From: Chloroflexota bacterium
Lineage (GTDB): Bacteria; Chloroflexota; Limnocylindria; QHBO01
Direction: 5' to 3'
Assembly (NCBI GenBank): GCA_005879775.1
Contig: VBJX01000023.1
Location: forward strand, 1-32,037
Length of the DNA stretch: 32,037 nt
Of the stretch, positions 2,218 through 27,962 are shown piece by piece (within the stretch, counting starts at the first letter, position 1; each line of letters begins with the position of its first letter). The translations under genes were made by a program, and so were the position numbers. Below the pieces are notes generated by a model. That model made no database searches. It saw only the letters and a list, made by a program, of their open reading frames with translations, and was not told where the DNA came from.

Positions 2218-2292
2218 TGGCTGGGGCGGAAGGATTCGAACCTTCGATCTCCTGATCCAGAGTCAGGCGCCTTACCACTTGGCCACACCCCA
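2218..2292 (-). tRNA. tRNA-Gln (anticodon CUG), CCA encoded
   Basis: The reverse complement folds as a 75-nt cloverleaf: TGGGGTG TG GCC AAGTGGTAA GGC G CCTGA CTCTGGA TCAGG AGATC GAAGG TTCGAAT CCTTC CGCCCCA G CCA. It has U1:A72 and G73 as in bacterial tRNA-Gln, and the anticodon loop is CT-CTG-GA. Confidence 0.92.
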
Positions 2293-6742: not shown

Positions 6743-9700
6743 ATGACCAGCCAGGATCCGCCTGAGGAGTCGCCGGTCGAGCGCGCCCTGGAGAGCGTGA
6801 ACGCCGGCTACGTGGCGGAGATGCGGGAGCGCTTCCTGCAGGACCCGGCCTCGGTCGACGACGAGTGGCGGGCGCTCTTCGAGCCGCGCATCAGCGGCCC
6901 GGAGACCCAGGCGATTGCCGGTTCCGCCGAGGGGGCGGGCGCCGACGGAGGATCGACCACCGGGACCGAGGCGACCATCAGCGAGCTCCCGGCCGGTGCG
7001 ACGCCGCTGGCCGGAGCCGCCGCACGGCTGGCATCGAACATGACGGCATCCCTGGCCGTGCCCACCGCCACCAGCTTCCGGGAGATGGAGGTTTCCGTCC
7101 TCGATGCCCGGCGCCGGGAGCTGAACGAGCAGCTCGCGCCGCGCAAGCTGACGTTCACTCATCTCATCGGCTGGGCGCTGGTGCGCGCCGCGAACGAGCA
7201 GCCCGCCATGAACCATCACTTCAACGAGGCCGATGGAAGGGCGTTTCGGGTCGACCCGGGTGCATTGAACCTGGGGCTGGCAGTCGATGTCGAGCGTCCC
7301 GACGGCAGCCGGACCTTGATCGTGCCGGTGGTGCGGAGGGCCGACAGCCTCGACTTCCCGGCTTTCCACGCTCGATGCGACGAGCTGATCGAGCGCGCCC
7401 GCGCCGCACGCCTGGCCCCTGACGACGTGAGCGGAGCCACGATCACCCTCACCAACCCCGGGACCCTGGGGACGACCGCATCGGTGGCGCGTCTGATGCC
7501 CGGGCAGGGCGCCATCCTGGCAACCGGCGCGATCCGCCAGGCAGGTGGCCGGCGCCTGATGACCATCAGCTCGACATATGACCACCGCATCATCCAGGGA
7601 GCCGAGTCCGGCGCCTTCCTGCGGCGCATCGAGCAGCTGCTCGGCGGCGCTGACCGCTTCTACGAGGAGATCGCCGCCTCACTGAGCGTCGGGCTCGGCC
7701 GGGTCCCTGAGTCTGGGCCCGATGCGGACCTCCGCGCGGTCGCCGCCGGCATGGCGCTCGTATCGGCCTACCGCTCGCACGGGCACCTGGCAGCGCAGCT
7801 GGATCCGCTGGGGAGCGCCCCTCCCGGCGATCCGTCGCTCGATCCGGCGTCGCTGGGGCTGAGCGAAGAGGCCATGGCCCGGATCCCGTCGGACCTGCTG
7901 CGCATCAGCGTCCCCGGCGCAACCCTGGCCGAGGCGCTTCCCGCGCTGCAGGCAACCTACTGTGGGTCGGTCGCTTACGAGGTGGAGCACATCGGCAGCC
8001 ACGAAGAGCGAGTCTGGCTGCGGGAGCGGATCGAGTCGGGAGCCCACCGGCAGCCCTTCTCCAAGGAGGCGCAGGGAGCGCTCCTGCGGCGGCTGAGCGA
8101 AGTGGAGGGGCTGGAGCGCTTCCTGCACAAGGCCTACCTGGGCCAGAAGCGCTTCAGCATCGAGGGGCTGGACATGATGGTCCCCATGCTCGAGCAGATC
8201 CTCTCCGATGCCCGGGCGGCTGGAGCACGCGACGGGGTGATCGGCATGGCGCACCGCGGCCGGCTGAACGTGCTGGCGAACGTGGTGGGGGTGAGCAAGG
8301 AGGCGCTCCTCGCCGAGTTCGAGGCCGGACGGGCCGGCACGGATGCCAAGGTCCCGCGCGGCGGCCTCGACGACGTCAAGTATCACCTCGGCTCGTCAGG
8401 CAGCTACGAGACCATTGCAGGCGCAATCGAGGTCACCCTGTCTCCCAACCCGAGCCACCTCGAGGCAGTCAACCCGGTGGTGGAAGGGCGCGCGCGGGCA
8501 CAGCAGTCGGACCGCAGCGGGCCGATGGTCAAGGTCGACCCCGACCGGACACTCCCCATCCTGATCCACGGCGACGCCGCCTTCGCCGCCCAGGGCGTCG
8601 TGGCCGAGACCTTCAACCTTGCGCGCCTGGCCGGCTACACGACCGGCGGGACCGTCCACCTGATCGCCAACAACCAGATCGGCTTCACCACCGAGCCCGG
8701 CGACGCACGATCAACCGACTACTCGAGCGACCTGGCGAAAGGCTTCGACGTCCCGATCGTCCATGTCAACGGCGACGATCCGGAGGCCTGCCTGGCGGCC
8801 GCCCGCCTGGCGATGATGTACCGCGAGCGATTCCACGCCGACGTCGTGATCGACCTCGTCGGCTACCGGCGCTACGGGCACAACGAGGGCGACGAGCCGG
8901 CGTACACCCAGCCGATCACCGCCGCCGCGATCGCGAACCACCCCAGCGTGCGCGAGCGGTATCGGTCGATCCTGGTGGAGGCCGGGGCAGTCTCGGCTGA
9001 AGAGGCGGATGGCTGGGCGACGGAGGTCGCCCAGGATCTGGCCGCCAGGCAGGCCGCCGTCCGCAAGGGCCATGAAGAGCCGCAGCTCGACCGGGGATCG
9101 GAGGCGATCGAGATCGAGGAGGGGGGCGAGCCGGTCACCGCGGTCGAGGAGGCCACCCTGCGGCGCCTGAACGATGAGCTGCACAGCTGGCCAGAGGGCT
9201 TCAACGTCAATCCGAAGCTTGCCAGGCAGATCGAGCGGCGCCGCGTTGCGCTCGACGGCTCGGAAGCCAGGATCGAGTGGGGCCATGCCGAGTCGCTGGC
9301 CCTCGCCTCGCTGGTGGTGCAGGGGGTGCCGGTGCGCCTCACCGGACAGGACACGGTGCGTGGCACCTTCAGCCAGCGACATGCAGCCCTCCACGACGCG
9401 AAGACCGGAAACGTCCACGTGCCGATCCAGAAGCTGTCGGGAGCGGCCGCAAGCATGGAGCTGCACAACAGCCCGCTCTCAGAGTACGCGTGCCTCGGCT
9501 TCGAGTACGGCTACGCGGTCACTGCCCCCGAGGCGCTCGTCATCTGGGAGGCGCAGTACGGGGACTTCGTCAACGGCGCCGAGATCATCATCGACCAGTT
9601 CCTGATCGCCGGGCTCGCCAAGTGGCGGCAGAGCTCGCGCCTGACCCTCCTCCTGCCCCACGGCTATGAGGGCCAGGGGCCTGAGCATTCCTCGGCGCGA

Positions 9701-23788: not shown

Positions 23789-24565
23789 ATGGAGCTCGCC
23801 GCGCGCTACCCGAACCTGCATGTCAGCCGCCACCCGCTGGTGCTGCACAAGCTCAGCCTGCTGCGCGATCGGACCACCGAGCCCAAGAAGTTCCGAGAGC
23901 TGGTGCGCGAGCTCTCGTGGCTGCTCGGCTACGAGGCGATGGCCGATCTGACCACCCAGCCGCTGGACGTCGAGACGCCGCTGGAAACGACTGCCGGAGC
24001 GGAGCTGGAGCCCAAGGTGGGCCTCGTGCCGGTCCTGCGCGCGGGGCTGGGCATGGTGGACGCCATGCTCGAGCTGATGCCATCGGCCGAGGTGTGGCAC
24101 ATCGGGCTCTACCGCGACGAGCGCACCCTCAAGCCGGTCGAGTACTACAACAAGCTGCCCGATGCCGCCACGGTGCAGGTCTGCCTCATCCTGGACCCGA
24201 TGCTGGCAACGGGCGGATCGAGCGCGGCGACCGTCGACATCCTCAAGCAGTGGGGCGCTGCCCGCATCAAGCAGGTGAGCCTGATCGCGGCGCCGGAAGG
24301 AGTGGCCACCCTCTCCTCCGCGCATCCCGACGTGGACATCCACGTCGGCGCCGTCGACCGGGCGCTGAACGAGCGCGGCTACATCGTTCCAGGGCTGGGT
24401 GACGCGGGGGACCGCCAGTTCGGCACATTCGCCGGGCCCGCCTCGGAACCCGGACATGCGATCGGCGATGAGGCGGCCGAGGTCGTGCGACGCCTGCAGC
24501 GCAGCCTGGCCGGAGAAGATCGTGGACAAAGCAGTGTCCCGAAGGAACCGCCGCCGGACCGTTGA
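23789..24565 (+). CDS. upp: Uracil phosphoribosyltransferase with a roughly 45-aa C-terminal extension
   Basis: [13 protein letters not shown]..., the PRPP loop [11 protein letters not shown], and [16 protein letters not shown] (the normal family C-terminus) are present. 45 more codons then precede the stop. Confidence 0.9.
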
Positions 24566-24591
24566 TGCAATCTCGGGTGCCGTTGGCTGCC

Positions 24592-24610
24592 CCTTCGGGA
24601 CGACCGAAGG
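24592..24610. terminator. Perfect 7-bp stem / 5-nt loop hairpin between convergent upp and the sORF
   Basis: CCTTCGG-GACGA-CCGAAGG lies 27 nt after the upp stop. It has no U-tract. Confidence 0.35.
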
Positions 24611-24674
24611 ATAGGCGCCGGGCCTCGGGGAGGGCAAGCCCACTTATCCCCGAAGTTCCAAGAAAGCCGGAGAG

Positions 24675-24710
24675 TTGTCCACAGCTCATCCCCGGATCGG
24701 CTGCGGACAA
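24675..24710 (-). terminator. Hairpin downstream of the sORF (11-bp stem, 14-nt loop)
   Basis: Minus-strand RNA: UUGUCCGCAGC-N14-GCUGUGGACAA, containing one G-U wobble. The same position is an A-C mismatch in a plus-strand transcript. The hairpin starts 24 nt after the sORF stop, and a U-rich stretch (CUUUCUU) begins 9 nt after the stem. Confidence 0.4.
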
Positions 24711-24733
24711 TAGTGGCAGTGGGCCTCAGGCAG

Positions 24734-24784
24734 CTAGCAGCAGTCGCCGGGGCAGCAGTCGGGATCGCAACACCCTCGTGGCAT
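24734..24784 (-). CDS. Candidate 16-aa polycysteine peptide MPRGCCDPDCCPGDCC (metallothionein-like sORF)
   Basis: The minus strand reads AAGGAGGTGA (24800-24791), a 6-nt spacer, then ATG CCA CGA GGG TGT TGC GAT CCC GAC TGC TGC CCC GGC GAC TGC TGC TAG. A consensus TATAAT and a 22-bp palindrome lie just upstream and a hairpin lies downstream. The ORF is below the size cutoff of the supplied track. Confidence 0.55.
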   Translation of the reverse strand: MPRGCCDPDCCPGDCC

Positions 24785-24816
24785 TCGGTCTCACCTCCTT
24801 TCGTTTGGCAACACCG

Positions 24817-24840
24817 ATTATATTGACATACGTCAATATA
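24817..24840 (-). promoter_or_regulatory. Promoter/operator of the polycysteine sORF: consensus -10 TATAAT overlapped by a 22-bp palindrome
   Basis: On the minus strand, TATAAT is the complement of 24822-24817. The palindrome TATATTGAC-ATAC-GTCAATATA spans 24819-24840, with 9-bp perfect arms and 10 of 11 symmetric pairs. The 30 nt at 24811-24840 contain only 9 G/C. Confidence 0.5.
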
Positions 24841-24853
24841 GACACCCGACGAT

Positions 24854-24882
24854 AGAGCGGTCGATCAGAGATTAGCCGCTCT
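24854..24882 (-). terminator. Hairpin just downstream of the GT-C gene stop
   Basis: AGAGCGG-N15-CCGCTCT (7-bp stem) lies 24 nt after the stop at 24906 and upstream of the sORF promoter. It has a large loop and no U-tract. Confidence 0.3.
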
Positions 24883-24905
24883 GGCTACCCCGCTTCTAAT
24901 CGCCT

Positions 24906-26462
24906 TCAGCACGGCCCAGCAGGGGCAGTAGCGCGCTCGTTCGGCGGCAGGTGTGTCGGATTCTCCAGGTCATAAACCCACATGCGCGGCGTCTGACAGA
25001 GCAACGGAGCGCGTGGGTCCAGGAAGGCCCGGACCGTGTCCACCCCGCGAAGGTCCGCGGTCACGATGAAGTAGTGGATGCCATCTCGCATCGCCGCCGC
25101 GAGGCGTTGGTCATCCTCACCGTCGATGCCTTGGAGATGAGTGAATTCCCTGTCGCCTGACGTCGGCCATGGCGATACCAGCAGCCCGGAGTAGTACATC
25201 AACGGGAAGCTTTCGTTGTAGCTGTAACCGATCACCGGGTTGCCGCGCCCGAGCCTTTCCCCGATCGCTGCAAAGGTCGGAGCGTCTACCTCGTACGCGT
25301 CACTCGCAGGGAATACGTCGACGGGAACAGTCAGGTACGCGACAGGGCCGGTTGCGAGGAGCGCGGCAAACATCAGCGACGCGATGGCTGGATGCGAGGA
25401 GCGAAACGTCCGAACCGTGGCGCCTGCGAACGCCGCCAGCCCGATCGCGGCCAGGGCGAGAAGTGGCACCTGGTAGTAATCGTGGGTCATGGTGTGCCAC
25501 GTGAAAGCGAGTGACGTCACCAGATATCCCGCGAGGAACCCCGCGACCAGCCGCCAGAGCCTCGGGGTGAGCCAAATACCCACGGCGGCGAGCGGTAAGG
25601 CGGTCCAGCCGACGACGTGGACCACGTTGCGCGCCCAGCCAAGATAGTAGTCCGTCGTCAGCAGCAAGCTGGGGATGACCTTCGCGTGGACCTGCCCCTG
25701 CAGAAACAGGGTCCCGTAGGCAACGGCCGGCAGGGCGACCAGACCGATGAGCGCTGCAAGGCGCCAGCGGCGCTGGCGATCTGACCATATCGATCCGCGT
25801 TCACTGGCCGTGGCGACGACAACGCCGATGATCGGGAGAATGAGGGGTCCAGGCTTGACCAGGGCGGCCAGTCCTGCGAGGACGGCCATGACCAAGAGGT
25901 TCCGGCGGCTCGCGAGGACATCGTTGCGCACGCCGAACCAGGCGGTCGCCACGAGACCCAGCATGGCCAAGCTGTCTGACTGGAAGCTCCGGCTGACGGC
26001 GATTGCGAACGGCGCAAAAAGGAAGTACGCAAGGCCGACGGAAGCTTCCAGCGATCCGACAAGGCGACGGCAAACGTCCCAGAGCAGCGCGCCAGCCATC
26101 AGCCAGGCCAGCGAGGTGAAGATGGCCGACGTCCAGGGCCGCTCAACCCCGCCCGGGAAATACGTGAGCGCGGTCAGCGTCTGCAGGATCGGCGGTTCAA
26201 TAAAGCGTCCTGATCCGGCCTGCAACCAGACCCGCTGCCACTGAGCCAGTGCATCAGGGTGCAGCGCGAACCAGATGGTTCGGGCCGCGTTCGCGGAGTC
26301 ATACTCAAGGGTGGGTCGAAAGGTGTGGGTCCAATCGTGCAGGACGGACATCCGCAGCACCACCCACACGACGGACAGGCCAAGAGCGGCAAGCGCGCCG
26401 ATCGCAGGCGCCGAATTGATCCGGGCCGCGCGGCCGATTTCTTGGCCCCGCGTTATCCGCAT
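24906..26462 (-). CDS. Polytopic membrane protein, GT-C fold glycosyltransferase-like (family 39/83, ArnT/PMT_2-like), with a C-terminal soluble domain
   Basis: Internal ATG 26462 of ORF 24906..26765 has GGGAG 9 nt upstream. There are about 11-12 hydrophobic helices, an acidic first loop (TLEYDSANAA) and a roughly 120-aa hydrophilic C-terminal domain. The family call rests on architecture and composition rather than a strong motif. Confidence 0.65.
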   Translation of the reverse strand: MRITRGQEIGRAARINSAPAIGALAALGLSVVWVVLRMSVLHDWTHTFRPTLEYDSANAARTIWFALHPDALAQWQRVWLQAGSGRFIEPPILQTLTALTYFPGGVERPWTSAIFTSLAWLMAGALLWDVCRRLVGSLEASVGLAYFLFAPFAIAVSRSFQSDSLAMLGLVATAWFGVRNDVLASRRNLLVMAVLAGLAALVKPGPLILPIIGVVVATASERGSIWSDRQRRWRLAALIGLVALPAVAYGTLFLQGQVHAKVIPSLLLTTDYYLGWARNVVHVVGWTALPLAAVGIWLTPRLWRLVAGFLAGYLVTSLAFTWHTMTHDYYQVPLLALAAIGLAAFAGATVRTFRSSHPAIASLMFAALLATGPVAYLTVPVDVFPASDAYEVDAPTFAAIGERLGRGNPVIGYSYNESFPLMYYSGLLVSPWPTSGDREFTHLQGIDGEDDQRLAAAMRDGIHYFIVTADLRGVDTVRAFLDPRAPLLCQTPRMWVYDLENPTHLPPNERATAPAGPC

Positions 26463-26562
26463 GCTGCCCCACTCCCGCCTTCGAGATCGTGCGCGCCGAC
26501 GGCGCCAGTGTAGGGTTTCAGACGTCGGAGGCGCGCAGTGCGGAAAGCTGCCGGGCTCATCA

Positions 26563-26586
26563 TCTATAGAGACGGGTAGATATAGA
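26563..26586. promoter_or_regulatory. Imperfect inverted repeat in the arsR / GT-C divergent promoter region, related to the sORF palindrome
   Basis: TCTATAGAGAC-GG-GTAGATATAGA. The core half-sites TATAGAGAC and TATATCTAC (reverse complement of the right arm) each match TATATTGAC at 7 of 9 positions. The octamer ATATAGAC occurs at both loci (24836-24843 and 26580-26587). Confidence 0.4.
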
Positions 26587-26596
26587 CCTCGGCCGA

Positions 26597-26602
26597 TATA
26601 CT
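26597..26602 (+). promoter_or_regulatory. Candidate -10 (TATACT) for a leaderless arsR transcript
   Basis: TATACT is followed by 7 nt (CAGAGCG) and then ATG 26610. There is no purine-rich SD. Confidence 0.4.
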
Positions 26603-26609
26603 CAGAGCG

Positions 26610-26903
26610 ATGAAATCGAACGATCCCGACATCCTCCTCCTCTCCGCCCTGGCCGACCCCACCCGTCTGTCCATCGTGAGGCAGCTCGGCACCCAGCCCG
26701 GCGCCGTCTGCGCCTGCGACTTCACCGAGTGCTGCGCCGTCACCCAGCCGACGATCTCGCATCACCTGAAGGTCCTGCGTGACGCGGGGGTCCTCACCAG
26801 CCGGCGAGAGGGGACGAACATCTACTACGAGTTCGCGCCCGGCTTCGTCGAACGCTTCCGGGGGCTGGGGGCGAGCCTCACGGGGTTGGTCCAGCTGGCC
26901 TAG
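26610..26903 (+). CDS. ArsR/SmtB family metal(loid)-sensing transcriptional repressor
   Basis: 97 aa. It has LSALADPTRLSIVRQL, a CxCD sensing motif (AVCACDFTECC) and the recognition helix TQPTISHHLKVLRDAGVL. TATACT lies 7 nt upstream of the ATG and there is no SD, so the gene is a leaderless candidate. Confidence 0.9.
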   Translation: MKSNDPDILLLSALADPTRLSIVRQLGTQPGAVCACDFTECCAVTQPTISHHLKVLRDAGVLTSRREGTNIYYEFAPGFVERFRGLGASLTGLVQLA

Positions 26904-26975
26904 GGACTATCGGCCGGGGCGAGGGCTACCCCGCGCTGCGGTACACTCGGATGCGGCTCATCCTTGGGAGGCTCG

Positions 26976-27961
26976 ATGCCCGCGTCGCATGTCACCGTGG
27001 CCGTCACCGGCGCCGCCGGACAGATCGGCTACGCGCTCGTCTTTCGGATCGCGTCCGGCCAGATGTTCGGCCCCGAGACGACCGTTGACCTGCAGCTCCT
27101 GGAGCTTGAAGTCGCGCTTCCGTCCCTCGAGGGGGTCGCCATGGAGCTCGACGACTGCGCCTTCCCGCTGCTGCGGCAGGTGGTGCGTACCGCGAGCCTC
27201 GACGAGGCGTTCGACGGGATCAACTGGGCGCTCCTGGTCGGCGCCGTGCCGCGCAAGGCAGGCATGGAGCGCAAGGATCTGCTGACCGTGAACGGAGGCA
27301 TCTTCACCGAGCAGGGACAGGCCATCGAGCGCAACGGGGCCGATGACGTCCACGTGCTCGTGGTCGGCAACCCGTGCAACACGAACTGCCTGATCGCGGG
27401 CGCCAATGCGCCCCGAGTCCCCCACGAGCGGTGGTTCGCGATGACCATGCTCGACGAGAATCGGGGCAAGGCGCTGCTGGCTCACCGGTCCGGGACGGAG
27501 GTCGCGGGGGTCGGCGACCTGGCGATCTGGGGCAACCACTCGAGCACCCAGTTCCCCGACTTCTACCACGCCACCATCGGTGGGCGACCGGCCCCCGAAG
27601 TGATCGGCGACGAGGCATGGCTGCAGGGCGAGTTCATCACCACCGTTCAGCAGCGGGGCGCTGCCGTGATCGCTGCCCGCGGACAGTCGAGCGCGGCGAG
27701 CGCGGCCAATGCGGTGATCGACACGGTGCGGGAGATCACCCAGCCCAGCGGTCGGGTCTTCAGCGCGGCTATCCCGGCGCCGGCCAGCGGTGGCTACGGA
27801 ATCCCCGAGGGCCTGGTCTTCGGCTACCCGCTGCGTGCTACAGCCCCTGGCCAGGTCGAGATCGTGCCCGGCATCGACCACGGGGAGTGGGCACAGGAGC
27901 GGGTCGATGCAACCTGCAATGAGCTGCTCGAGGAGCGCGAGGCCGTGAAGGAGCTGATCTG

Positions 27962-27962
<1 letters not shown>
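26976..27962 (+). CDS. mdh: Malate dehydrogenase (NAD-dependent, LDH-unlike type)
   Basis: [27 protein letters not shown]...[13 protein letters not shown]...[14 protein letters not shown] 26976 has GGGAGG 5 nt upstream, whereas the TTG 26964 start in the track lies inside that SD. Confidence 0.93.

What the first reader, a model, noticed from the sequence alone, without database searches (positions are those of the whole stretch)
24700..26903. Compact accessory cassette (ArsR sensor, GT-C membrane glycosyltransferase-like gene, polycysteine sORF) between core genes upp and mdh
Housekeeping genes flank this stretch. Inside it lie, divergently, an ArsR/SmtB sensor and a 518-aa polytopic GT-C-like protein, followed on the same strand by the sORF with its own promoter. 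The stretch looks more A/T-rich than its surroundings: a 60-nt line in the GT-C gene (25201-25260) has 36 G/C, against 42 in a kgd line (7021-7080). ArsR-family sensors normally sit next to efflux pumps, arsenate reductases or metallothioneins. Pairing with an ArnT/PMT-like envelope glycosyltransferase plus a 16-aa thiol peptide is not an arrangement I recognise. Possible readings are (a) metal(loid) buffering by the peptide plus envelope remodelling, (b) glycosylation or export-linked handling of the peptide, or (c) coincidental adjacency.
Basis: inference. Interest (0 to 1): 0.7.

Follow-up and report, generated by a model that had tools for sequence, protein, structure and literature searches.

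The report
ArsR-controlled polycysteine micro-peptide, split by inserted gene
The window holds a conserved pair, an arsenic-type ArsR repressor and a 16-residue peptide that is more than one-third cysteine and probably binds arsenite; the membrane glycosyltransferase gene lying between them is a recent, unrelated insertion.

Summary
All three elements are present as described: arsR (26610-26903, +), an ArnT-like GT-C gene (24906-26462, -) and the sORF MPRGCCDPDCCPGDCC (24784-24734, -). They lie between upp and mdh, in the lowest-GC stretch of the window.

They are not one cassette. Fourteen contigs with the same upp/mdh synteny have the sORF directly divergent from arsR and no GT-C gene. These include the closest relative (upp 96%, ArsR 90% identical). 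None of about 170 related arsR loci, other than the window's own contig, has the GT-C gene. None of the GT-C homologue neighbourhoods examined has arsR. The GT-C gene sits in a 1.7-kb insert flanked by a duplicated operator segment.

The conserved unit is arsR plus the sORF. SD-led peptides of 13-21 aa (38% Cys, Asp/Gly-rich, mostly ending in CC) accompany this ArsR clade in 43 other loci. The clade's palindromic operator (ATATTGAC-N4-GTCAATAT) occurs perfectly in front of the window's sORF.

The clade sits next to arsM and arsC. Most neighbouring ArsM proteins carry a similar Cys-rich tail, and four tail-less ones are followed by such a sORF.

My best reading is an ArsR-repressed, arsenite-induced thiol peptide that buffers or hands over As(III), analogous to SmtB/SmtA. 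That function is inferred, not shown.

The parts
23789..24565 (+). upp (uracil phosphoribosyltransferase), the left housekeeping flank; convergent with the sORF
   Evidence: Pfam UPRTase E 5e-74; NCBIfam upp equivalog above its cut-off
24675..24710 (-). Hairpin (11-bp stem) about 25 nt after the sORF stop, followed by CUUUCUU; likely terminator of a roughly 150-nt sORF transcript
   Evidence: Fold. A GC-rich hairpin follows the sORF in most related loci: mean MFE of the 60 nt downstream is -28.1 against -21.1 kcal/mol for background, p = 7e-10.
24734..24784 (-). Polycysteine sORF, MPRGCCDPDCCPGDCC plus stop (16 aa, 6 Cys in three vicinal pairs)
   Evidence: Sequence. It is the only SD-led Cys-rich sORF in the 32-kb window. 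Orthologues in L169 (MPRPCCDPDCCPGDCC), L170/L171, L004 and L092.
24792..24801 (-). Shine-Dalgarno AAAGGAGGTG of the sORF
   Evidence: The same strong SD (GAAAGGAGGTGA-like) precedes nearly all related sORFs.
24817..24822 (-). TATAAT, candidate -10 of the sORF promoter, inside the operator
   Evidence: Read from the sequence. The equivalent position in relatives reads TATGAT or TATCAT. This is an inference.
24820..24839 (.). Operator site 1: perfect palindrome ATATTGAC-ATAC-GTCAATAT
   Evidence: 0 mismatches, 0 expected in shuffles. The same motif lies within 130 bp upstream of arsR in 97 of 102 related loci: 135 sites near arsR against 4 elsewhere in 704 kb.
24836..24870 (.). Left copy of the duplicated segment (ATATAGAC-ACCCGA-CGATAGAG...TCAGAG), which includes a degenerate operator site 2
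   Evidence: Alignment A1. blastn against L169 and L171 places the junction at 24843-24854.
24844..26579 (.). Window-specific insert of 1736 bp, absent from all syntenic relatives; carries the GT-C gene and its 5' region
   Evidence: Window 24109-24843 matches L169 1-715 and window 26580-27277 matches L169 708-1406. The same breakpoints appear against L004 and L092. This stretch holds the lowest GC of the window.
24906..26462 (-). GT-C fold, ArnT/PMT_2-like polytopic membrane glycosyltransferase gene (518 aa); a passenger of the insert
   Evidence: Pfam PMT_2. Fold match to ArnT 5f15, then STT3, PglB and ALG enzymes. Best homologue only 53% identical, in unrelated contexts. GC3 0.78.
26564..26583 (.). 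Degenerate copy of operator site 1 (CTATAGAGACGGGTAGATAT, 5 mismatches)
   Evidence: Aligned with site 1 of the relatives in A1. The similarity is weak, so homology is uncertain.
26580..26607 (.). Right copy of the duplicated segment. It contains operator site 2 (ATATAGACCTCGGCCGATAT, 26580-26599), which overlaps the arsR -10-like TATACT (26597-26602)
   Evidence: 3 mismatches to the operator pattern. Aligned in A1. TATACT-N7-ATG suggests a leaderless or near-leaderless arsR mRNA (inference).
26610..26903 (+). arsR: ArsR/SmtB repressor with the invariant alpha-3 motif C34-A-C36-D-F-x-x-C41-C42
   Evidence: All four Cys are 99-100% conserved across the window protein and its 120 closest homologues. 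Neighbours in related loci are arsM and arsC.
26964..27962 (+). mdh (malate dehydrogenase), the right housekeeping flank
   Evidence: NCBIfam PRK05442, 466 bits against a cut-off of 271

Best explanation
The functional unit is a two-gene module: an As(III)-type ArsR repressor and a tiny polycysteine peptide gene, both under the repressor's palindromic operator.

In the ancestral state, kept by every syntenic relative, the two genes are divergent. They are 72-120 bp apart and share two overlapping operator sites whose outer halves coincide with the -10 boxes of the two promoters.

In the window's lineage a 1.7-kb segment carrying an ArnT-like GT-C glycosyltransferase gene landed inside this intergenic region, duplicating about 30 bp or more of it. 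The sORF kept a perfect site 1 with its own -10, SD and terminator. arsR kept site 2.

Proposed mechanism (inferred). Without arsenite, ArsR occupies the operators and shuts off both genes. As(III) binds the CxC...CC site, ArsR leaves the DNA, and the 16-aa peptide is made in quantity. Its three vicinal Cys pairs bind As(III), up to two As per peptide at three thiolates each. The peptide would act as a cytosolic buffer and/or as a carrier that hands As(III) to ArsM or an exporter, and it would feed back on ArsR by lowering free As(III).

The GT-C gene is a passenger with no demonstrated link to this function. It may have picked up a weakened copy of the ArsR-controlled promoter.
For: Shown by computation.

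(1) Co-occurrence. SD-led polyCys sORFs of 13-21 aa lie next to this ArsR clade in 38 loci from the two collection scans plus L169-L173. They are found in 20 of 34 loci where ArsR is at least 65% identical, 10 of 51 at 55-65% and 2 of 43 below 55%. In about 1 Mb of fetched loci only one unrelated hit was found. None was found in 78 kb of GT-C homologue loci or in the rest of the window.

(2) Shared operator. The motif is within 130 bp of arsR in 97 of 102 loci, and a perfect copy lies in front of the window's sORF.

(3) Arsenic context. ArsM scores 284-291 bits against a cut-off of 263 for NF008823, and LMW-PTP ArsC-like genes flank the clade. arsM is within 3 kb in 73 of 160 loci and arsC in 69. 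The four ArsR cysteines are invariant.

(4) An independent gene rather than a leader. The sORF occurs as a stand-alone unit convergent with arsC or upp (10 loci plus the window), ahead of DUF47-PiT or ChrA (11 loci), straight after arsR (3 loci) and straight after arsM (4 loci). A hairpin follows it nearly everywhere.

(5) Peptide-level constraint. Codon differences between close relatives are 66 synonymous to 54 non-synonymous. Composition is 38% Cys, 16% Asp and 15% Gly, with 5 hydrophobic residues in 662. Thirty of 38 peptides end in CC.

(6) Link to ArsM. Of the ArsM neighbours at least 60% identical to the reference, 47 of 59 end in a Cys-rich tail (...GCCGGSGCC*). The four ArsMs that end at ...TKPA* are each followed 8-44 nt later by an SD-led polyCys sORF. 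The statistic covers only three of these four, because L120 fell below its 60% identity filter: 3 of 12 tail-less against 0 of 47 tailed, p = 0.007.

(7) GT-C as an insert. It is absent from 14 syntenic contigs, including L169 (upp 96% aa). The breakpoints are clean at 24843/26580 with a flanking repeat, and GC3 is low.

A 2025 paper states that no sequestration gene is known within ars operons (PMC12093948).
Against: No expression, translation or metal-binding data exist for any member. All hosts are uncultured MAGs or metagenome contigs.

All comparison loci were fetched through arsR, so the reverse association (how often such sORFs occur without arsR) is tested only on small controls.

The inducer is inferred from neighbours. 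A four-Cys alpha-3 site could also sense Cd, Pb, Zn or Hg.

The window itself has no arsM or arsC within 32 kb.

The four sORF-after-ArsM loci belong to one subclade, so they may reflect a single event. Their peptides (CDCPCGPDCPC type) do not resemble the fused tails in sequence. The pattern therefore suggests functional replacement, not proven gene fission.

In the 11 loci where genes follow the sORF, a hairpin just after a Cys-rich ORF could still act as an attenuator.
Confidence: 0.55

Rival explanations
1. Cysteine-responsive leader peptide. The polycysteine sORF is a cis-acting attenuator like the mycobacterial polycysteine sORFs. Ribosome pausing at Cys codons, for example when arsenite drains thiol pools, would change formation of the hairpin just downstream and so control downstream genes.
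For: Runs of Cys codons. A stable hairpin begins 5-25 nt after the stop in most loci. In 11 loci DUF47-PiT or ChrA follow on the same strand. There is a precedent in mycobacteria (bioRxiv 10.1101/834739).
Against: In the window and 10 other loci nothing follows on that strand; the next gene is convergent (upp or arsC). In 7 loci the sORF is the last cistron, after arsR or arsM. It has a strong SD and a 5' UTR rather than being leaderless. There are no cysteine-metabolism neighbours. No conserved RNA structure lies between the sORF and DUF47 (consensus -6 kcal/mol). The C-terminal CC and the Asp/Gly composition are conserved, which a pure stalling tract does not require.
Confidence: 0.12
2. True three-part cassette. 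The GT-C enzyme and the peptide work together under ArsR, either as envelope remodelling under metalloid stress or as glycosylation or export of the peptide.
For: The GT-C gene now sits divergent from arsR, where the sORF sits in relatives. It lies about 100 bp from an operator copy (26580-26599), so some ArsR control is conceivable.
Against: The GT-C gene is present at this locus only in the window's own contig. Its homologues never neighbour arsR or a polyCys sORF. The operator site 1 copy and the -10 on its side are degenerate. The peptide has no signal sequence or hydrophobic residues. GC3 marks the GT-C gene as compositionally foreign.
Confidence: 0.07
3. A mini-metallothionein for a soft metal (Cu(I), Cd, Zn or Hg) rather than arsenite, with ArsR acting as a CadC/SmtB-like metal sensor.
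For: Cys-rich, acidic peptides bind many thiophilic metals. The ArsR alpha-3 site has four Cys, as in Cd/Pb/Zn-sensing CadC-type sites. The divergent repressor-peptide layout is that of smtB/smtA (own knowledge). SmtB and CadC are among the PDB sequence matches.
Against: The neighbours are arsM, arsC, phosphate and chromate oxyanion transporters. No P-type ATPase or CDF gene turned up among the neighbour clusters whose families were checked, but only a handful of clusters were annotated, so this is not a full survey. The peptides lack His. The ArsM tails are similar in character.
Confidence: 0.15
4. The sORF is not translated. The conserved feature would be only the promoter, operator and 5' region of a divergent transcript, and the ORF a by-product of GC-rich sequence.
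For: No direct evidence of translation. GC-rich genomes throw up Cys- and Gly-rich frames (for example, spurious hits inside genes).
Against: The ORF is intact in all 44 loci in which it was found (the window's plus 43 others), with a strong SD at the right spacing and a stop right after the terminal Cys. Peptides differ in sequence and length but keep the same composition. There is an excess of synonymous changes. Background frequency is about 1 per Mb.
Confidence: 0.05

Closest known systems
SmtB-SmtA of Synechococcus (ArsR/SmtB repressor divergent from a metallothionein gene)
   Same: An ArsR/SmtB-family repressor and a Cys-rich metal(loid)-binding peptide gene are transcribed divergently from a short intergenic region with inverted-repeat operators, so that induction yields a sequestering thiol peptide. 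The layout is from my own knowledge; SmtB appears among the PDB sequence matches.
   Different: The peptide is 13-21 aa rather than 56 aa. It has no His and no SmtA/BmtA fold or Pfam match. The context is arsenic (arsM, arsC) rather than zinc. In the window the pair is split by a 1.7-kb insert.
Mycobacterial polycysteine leaderless sORF attenuators (Canestrari et al., bioRxiv 10.1101/834739)
   Same: Unannotated ORFs of a few codons dominated by Cys in high-GC Gram-positive-type genomes.
   Different: Those are leaderless, sit first in cysteine-metabolism operons and act in cis through ribosome stalling. The sORFs here have a strong SD and an ArsR operator. They often have no downstream gene and are found in four different positions relative to ars genes.
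ArsD arsenic metallochaperone and Cys-rich C-terminal tails of ArsM
   Same: Vicinal Cys pairs serve as As(III) ligands, for hand-over to a partner (ArsA for ArsD; own knowledge). ArsM neighbours of this ArsR clade end in ...GCCGGSGCC*, much like the free peptides' ...GDCC* and ...GGCC*.
   Different: ArsD is a folded protein of about 120 aa, and the peptides match no family. The role of the ArsM tails is itself untested.
Phytochelatins and synthetic (Glu-Cys)n peptides
   Same: Short, acidic, Cys-repeat peptides such as MRSDCDCDCDCGECC..., a chemistry suited to As(III) and Cd (PMC9917255 abstract, seen).
   Different: Phytochelatins are made enzymatically from glutathione with gamma-Glu linkages. 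The peptides here are ribosomally encoded alpha-peptides under a dedicated repressor.
ArnT / PMT_2 GT-C glycosyltransferases (for the inserted gene only)
   Same: Polytopic GT-C fold with a C-terminal soluble domain. The top structural match is ArnT 5f15, and Pfam PMT_2 scores above threshold.
   Different: About 15% identity to ArnT. There is no PDB match by sequence and no NCBIfam model. Donor and acceptor are unknown, and there are no conserved neighbours.

Membership tests
ArsR/SmtB metalloregulators | Winged helix-turn-helix of the HTH_5/ArsR type | tested here: met
   Pfam HTH_5 43.8 bits (cut-off 22); NCBIfam NF033788 85.6 bits (cut-off 55)
ArsR/SmtB metalloregulators | Palindromic operator overlapping its own promoter (autoregulation) | tested here: met
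   An 8-4-8 palindrome lies within 130 bp upstream of arsR in 97 of 102 related loci. The window has sites at 26580-26599 and 24820-24839. Actual binding was not tested.
Type 1 (R773) As(III)-sensing ArsR | Cys32-x-Cys34-x-x-Cys37 As(III) site in helix alpha-3 (as described in PMC11868830) | tested here: inconclusive
   C34-A-C36-D matches the CxCD core. The third ligand position (+5) is Phe/Thr, and an invariant Cys41-Cys42 pair lies at +7/+8. This makes it a variant of the type 1 site.
Type 1 (R773) As(III)-sensing ArsR | Derepression by As(III)/Sb(III) | not testable with these tools
   Only inferred from arsM and arsC neighbours.
GT-C glycosyltransferases (PMT_2 / ArnT-like) | Polytopic GT-C fold and a PMT_2 profile match | tested here: met
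   PMT_2 39.3 bits (cut-off 26.1). Model pLDDT 82.8. Matches to ArnT, STT3, PglB and ALG enzymes at E from 1e-7 to 1e-4.
GT-C glycosyltransferases (PMT_2 / ArnT-like) | Catalytic acidic residue in the first extracytoplasmic loop; lipid-phosphate sugar donor | not tested
   E107 is invariant in the 11-sequence alignment, but its position in the fold was not examined.
Bacterial metallothioneins (SmtA/BmtA, MymT) | Sequence or profile membership | tested here: not met
   Six related 20-21-aa peptides had no Pfam or NCBIfam hit even at E <= 10. The window's 16-aa peptide is too short for those tools.
Bacterial metallothioneins (SmtA/BmtA, MymT) | Small, Cys-rich, no aromatic residues, metal-thiolate binding | tested here: inconclusive
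   The composition criteria are met: 38% Cys and 5 hydrophobic residues in 662. Binding is not testable here.
Mycobacterial polycysteine attenuator sORFs | Leaderless mRNA starting at the sORF AUG/GUG | tested here: not met
   A strong SD, AAAGGAGGTG, lies 9 nt upstream, and the -10-like box is about 35 nt upstream.
Mycobacterial polycysteine attenuator sORFs | First cistron of an operon whose downstream genes it controls (cysteine metabolism) | tested here: not met
   In the window the next gene (upp) is convergent. This holds for 10 other loci, and no cysteine-metabolism genes are nearby.
SmtB/SmtA-type repressor-thionein divergon (a working analogy, not a sequence family) | Divergent repressor and thiol-peptide genes sharing one operator region | tested here: met
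   Met in 32 of the 43 other sORF loci. In the window the two genes are 1.8 kb apart because of the insert, and each keeps an operator copy.

The most novel reading that the evidence does not exclude
The sORFs are an unannotated, multi-phylum class of ribosomally made, phytochelatin-like As(III) carriers. They occur in Chloroflexota/Limnocylindria, with single examples in a Gaiellaceae MAG and an Acidobacteriota MAG. At 13-21 aa they would be the smallest gene-encoded metallothionein-type peptides and the first dedicated sequestration or chaperone component of ars regulons. They would work in trans as a detachable version of the Cys-rich tail of ArsM, capturing As(III) and presenting it for methylation or export, while tuning ArsR induction through feedback.
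Probability: 0.35. Interest if true: 0.8.

Novelty: new variant of a known kind. Interest (0 to 1): 0.6.

Why it matters
Arsenic resistance operons are among the best-studied bacterial detoxification systems. Even so, a 2025 paper states that no gene for intracellular sequestration is known within them (PMC12093948).

A repressor-controlled, genetically encoded thiol peptide of 13-21 residues would add a new component to that system. Gene callers miss it because it is below their length limit. It would also show that metallothionein-like function can be reached with a peptide no longer than a phytochelatin.

It could explain the unexplained Cys-rich tails of many ArsM enzymes. It would also supply very small natural As(III)-binding tags and a matched ArsR/operator pair for biosensors and bioremediation.

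For genome annotation, the case shows how a single inserted gene can make a conserved two-gene module look like a novel three-gene cassette.

Tried and rejected
(1) A second class of apparent sORFs (MLPVAEAGGCCGGSGCC and similar, about 0.9-1.1 kb from arsR) turned out to be the C-terminal tails of full-length ArsM genes. They were removed from the sORF count.

(2) Greedy longest-ORF calling and clustering of neighbours gave mostly antisense artefacts in these 70%-GC loci. I replaced it with tblastn using verified representatives.

(3) Searching the large protein collection with the peptide alignment is not possible, because the query must be at least 40 aa. Pfam and NCBIfam gave nothing for the peptides.

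(4) Rfam on the whole window found only a tRNA at 2221-2292 and nothing in the region.

(5) No conserved RNA structure lies between the sORF and the downstream DUF47 gene.

(6) The generic sigma-70 scan found only a weak TCGACC-18-TATATT match and no classical terminators. The promoter elements given here were read by eye from alignments.

(7) I looked for a remnant sORF on the arsR side of the insert. The 36-aa ORF at 26453-26563 is not Cys-rich.

(8) Plasmid collection: the best ArsR matches are only 51% identical (Streptomyces, Arthrobacter) and have no polyCys sORF nearby. No cultured carrier was found.

(9) Four literature searches for an ArsR- or ars-linked small Cys peptide and one on Cys-rich ArsM tails found no description.

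(10) The 12-nt repeat TGGCTACCCCGC / GGGCTACCCCGC (24882 and 26923) was judged a likely chance match.

Full report
**1. What is in the window**

- arsR (26610-26903, +, 97 aa) matches Pfam HTH_5/HTH_20 and the NCBIfam ArsR/SmtB metalloregulator model above its cut-off.
- On the opposite strand is a 518-aa polytopic protein (24906-26462). It matches Pfam PMT_2 above threshold. An AlphaFold model built on 11 homologues (pLDDT 82.8) resembles ArnT best (5f15, E 1.3e-7, TM 0.58), followed by STT3, PglB and ALG-type GT-C enzymes.
- Downstream on the same strand lies ATG CCA CGA GGG TGT TGC GAT CCC GAC TGC TGC CCC GGC GAC TGC TGC TAG, which encodes MPRGCCDPDCCPGDCC (24784-24734). AAAGGAGGTG lies 9 nt upstream. 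An 11-bp-stem hairpin at 24710-24675 and a CUUUCUU tract follow it.
- upp (23789-24565) and mdh (26964-27962) flank the stretch.

The compositional claim also holds. The GT-C gene has GC 0.651 and GC3 0.780, against GC3 of 0.87-0.93 for upp, mdh, arsR and kgd. The lowest-GC 1557-bp window of the whole 32 kb starts at 24650 (0.636; mean 0.690, sd 0.019).

**2. Where the window comes from**

The closest ArsR and GT-C relatives are from uncultured Chloroflexota, mostly the class Candidatus Limnocylindria. The window's own contig was recovered as L084.

**3. The co-occurrence test: the GT-C gene fails it**

The best GT-C homologue is only 53% identical. I fetched eight loci for six GT-C homologues, which fall into about four kinds of neighbourhood. 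None contains arsR, and none has a polycysteine sORF.

Conversely, I fetched 160 loci through ArsR (80 from genomes and 80 from metagenomes) and six more for the closest ArsR proteins. The GT-C gene appears only in the window's own contig.

Fourteen contigs share the window's synteny on at least one side (asparaginase II - bactofilin - upp ... arsR - mdh - citrate synthase): L004, L014, L090, L092, L099, L100, L101, L102, L106 and L169-L173. In all of them the sORF lies directly upstream of arsR and divergent from it, with no GT-C gene.

The closest is L169 (upp 96% and ArsR 90% identical at the protein level). It aligns with window 24109-24843 and 26580-27277 through overlapping coordinates 1-715 and 708-1406. 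The 1736 bp from 24844 to 26579 are therefore window-specific.

The octamer ATATAGAC is present at both junctions. The repeat can be extended to about 30 bp: ATATAGAC-N6-CGATAGAG...TCAGAG on the left and ATATAGAC-N6-CGATATAC-TCAGAG on the right. The same breakpoints appear against L004 and L092.

Together with the low GC3, this identifies the GT-C gene as a recent insertion into the sORF-arsR intergenic region. Loss in every other lineage is formally possible but much less parsimonious.

**4. The co-occurrence test: arsR and the sORF pass it**

I scanned all arsR loci for ORFs of 10-40 codons with an SD, at least 4 Cys and at least 25% Cys. This gave 39 sORFs, one of them in the window's own contig. 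Two further hits were ArsM C-termini and one was unrelated.

Five more sORFs come from the closest relatives: MPRPCCDPDCCPGDCC, MLRPCCDPDCCPGDCC (in two contigs) and MVRICCDPDCCDDCC (in two contigs).

No such ORF occurs elsewhere in the 32-kb window or in 78 kb of GT-C homologue loci.

Frequency falls with ArsR distance: 20 of 34 loci at 65% identity or more, 10 of 51 at 55-65%, and 2 of 43 below 55%. The two distant cases are a Gaiellaceae MAG and an Acidobacteriota MAG.

The peptides have these properties:
- 13-21 aa long, with 4-9 Cys;
- 38% Cys, 16% Asp and 15% Gly;
- only 5 hydrophobic residues in 662;
- mean net charge -2.3;
- 30 of 38 end in CC.

Between close relatives, 66 codon differences are synonymous and 54 non-synonymous. 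With the conserved SD and stop position, this indicates selection on a translated product.

No Pfam or NCBIfam family matches them.

**5. The operator**

Upstream of arsR nearly every locus has ATATYGAC-N4-GTCRATAT-like palindromes. A match with at most 3 mismatches lies within 130 bp of arsR in 97 of 102 loci. There are 135 such sites near arsR against 4 elsewhere in 704 kb.

Loci without the sORF usually have one site. Loci with the divergent sORF have two overlapping sites. By inspection, the outer halves coincide with -10-like hexamers: TATACT 7 nt before the arsR ATG, which suggests a leaderless arsR mRNA, and TATGAT, TATCAT or TATAAT facing the sORF.

In the window the pattern occurs twice and nowhere else, with 0 expected by chance:
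- a perfect copy at 24820-24839 in front of the sORF, overlapping TATAAT;
- a 3-mismatch copy at 26580-26599 in front of arsR.

Both sides of the insert align with the single ancestral intergenic region (alignment A1). Each copy has kept the site next to its gene and let the other decay.

The copy that now faces the GT-C gene has 5 mismatches and a weakened -10. ArsR control of the GT-C gene is therefore possible but doubtful.

**6. Which metal(loid)?**

The ArsR clade is embedded in arsenic genes. An arsenite methyltransferase lies within 3 kb in 73 of 160 loci (NF008823, 284-291 bits, cut-off 263). An LMW-PTP arsenate-reductase-like gene does so in 69 of 160. It matches Pfam LMWPc and scores 129 bits on the arsC_pI258 equivalog, below its cut-off of 174.

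In several syntenic relatives an arsC sits between upp and the sORF. The window lacks it and has no arsM or arsC anywhere in its 32 kb.

The four cysteines of the motif C34-A-C36-D-F-x-x-C41-C42 are 99-100% conserved across the window protein and its 120 closest homologues. C34 and C36 correspond to Cys32 and Cys34 of the R773 type 1 As(III) site described in PMC11868830. The third ligand is displaced to a CC pair, which makes this a variant of that site.

**7. Leader peptide or product?**

The sORF occurs in four arrangements:
- stand-alone, divergent from arsR and convergent with arsC or upp (10 loci plus the window);
- divergent from arsR and followed by DUF47-PiT or ChrA, often then PstS (11 loci; families checked);
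- immediately after arsR on the same strand (3 loci);
- immediately after arsM (4 loci).

A cis-acting leader needs a fixed downstream target, and this sORF has none. There is also no conserved structure between the sORF and DUF47. A GC-rich hairpin follows the sORF almost everywhere (mean -28.1 against -21.1 kcal/mol, p = 7e-10), as expected for a self-contained small transcription unit.

These properties differ from the mycobacterial polycysteine attenuators, which are leaderless and head cysteine-metabolism operons. An attenuator role in the 11 operonic loci cannot be fully excluded.

**8. Link to ArsM**

Of the ArsM neighbours at least 60% identical to the reference, 47 of 59 end in a linker plus a Cys-rich tail such as ...GCCGGSGCC* or ...CGCGSGGCC*.

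In L029, L116, L119 and L120 the ArsM stops at ...ATKPA*. It is followed 8-44 nt later by GAAAGGAGGTGAGC and a polyCys sORF such as MPVCDCDCGPNCPCDC or MTSCDCPCGPDCPCGG. In one search, which excluded L120 because it fell below the 60% identity filter, 3 of 12 tail-less ArsMs have such a sORF after them against 0 of 47 tailed ones (p = 0.007).

These four loci are related to one another, and their peptides do not resemble the fused tails in sequence. The observation therefore suggests functional equivalence, with a free peptide substituting for a tail, and not proven gene fission.

**9. Interpretation**

The best-supported model is an ArsR-repressed, arsenite-induced thiol peptide. It parallels the SmtB/SmtA repressor-metallothionein pair (my own knowledge of that system) but is scaled down to phytochelatin size and placed in an arsenic regulon.

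The shown steps are:
- conservation of the pair;
- the shared operator;
- the arsenic gene context;
- the coding signature;
- the status of the GT-C gene as an insertion.

The inferred steps are:
- ArsR binding and release by As(III);
- translation of the sORF;
- As(III) binding by the peptide, for which three vicinal Cys pairs could hold two As at three thiolates each;
- hand-over to ArsM or to exporters.

Rival readings (a soft-metal thionein, a Cys attenuator, a genuine three-gene cassette, an untranslated ORF) are listed with their tests in the rival explanations.

**10. Novelty and limits**

Four literature searches for ars- or ArsR-linked small Cys peptides found nothing. A 2025 paper states that no sequestration gene is known within ars operons.

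I therefore rate the arsR-sORF module as a new variant of a known kind, the repressor-plus-thionein pair. The three-gene "cassette" is an artefact of an insertion.

The limits are these:
- All evidence is comparative.
- All carriers are uncultured.
- Every comparison locus was fetched through arsR, so the reverse association is tested only on small controls.
- The peptides are too short for the protein-database tools.

Noticed in passing
L036:5069-5911 (-), L017:6306-7121 (+) and about 45 other loci: ArsM (arsenite methyltransferase) genes next to this ArsR clade almost all end in a flexible linker plus a Cys-rich tail (...GCCGGSGCC*, ...CGCGSGGCC*). A naive sORF scan mistakes these tails for separate peptides. 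Their function appears to be undescribed.
   Followed up: partly
L017:2904-5912 (-), L020:4113-5927 (-), L021, L112, L113, L141: In many relatives the ArsR operator and sORF head a same-strand string of oxyanion-transport genes: DUF47/PhoU_div - PiT (PHO4) - sometimes ChrA - PstS - PstC/A-like permease. This suggests that ArsR also controls phosphate/arsenate discrimination. L096 has DUF47-PiT divergent from arsR without a sORF.
   Followed up: partly
window 26597-26612: TATACT lies 7 nt before the arsR ATG and there is no SD. The same holds in the relatives. arsR is therefore probably expressed from a leaderless mRNA, in contrast with the very strong SD of the sORF.
   Followed up: no
window 24428-24565: upp carries a C-terminal extension of about 45 aa beyond the UPRTase domain. 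Its GC3 is atypically low (0.674, against 0.911 for the core). The extension is largely shared by relatives: L004 aligns to residue 243, and L014 and L169-L171 align through residue 258.
   Followed up: no
L004:5405-5824 (+), also L014, L090, L099-L101, L106: Most syntenic relatives have an LMW-PTP arsC-like gene between upp and the sORF. The window, L092, L102 and L169-L171 lack it, so this locus gains and loses ars genes readily.
   Followed up: partly
L016:4770-5035, L007, L103, L108, L113: In one subgroup the sORF sits 250-300 bp from arsR, and a further ORF of about 50 codons (MNLLTEMLASAREADMQ... in L016) lies between the operator and the sORF.
   Followed up: no
L172:477-1907, L173, L174: In the relatives whose ArsR is 84% identical, arsR is followed by NUDIX hydrolase and BrkB-family (Virul_fac_BrkB) genes before mdh. 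This is another lineage-specific insertion at the same locus.
   Followed up: no
L083:2649-2759 (-): A Mycobacterium sp. locus contains an ORF ending ...AGCCCCCCSC, possibly one of the mycobacterial polycysteine attenuator sORFs. It is unrelated to arsR by position (3.2 kb away).
   Followed up: no
window 2221-2292 (-): A tRNA gene (Rfam RF00005, 70.7 bits), the only Rfam hit in the window.
   Followed up: no
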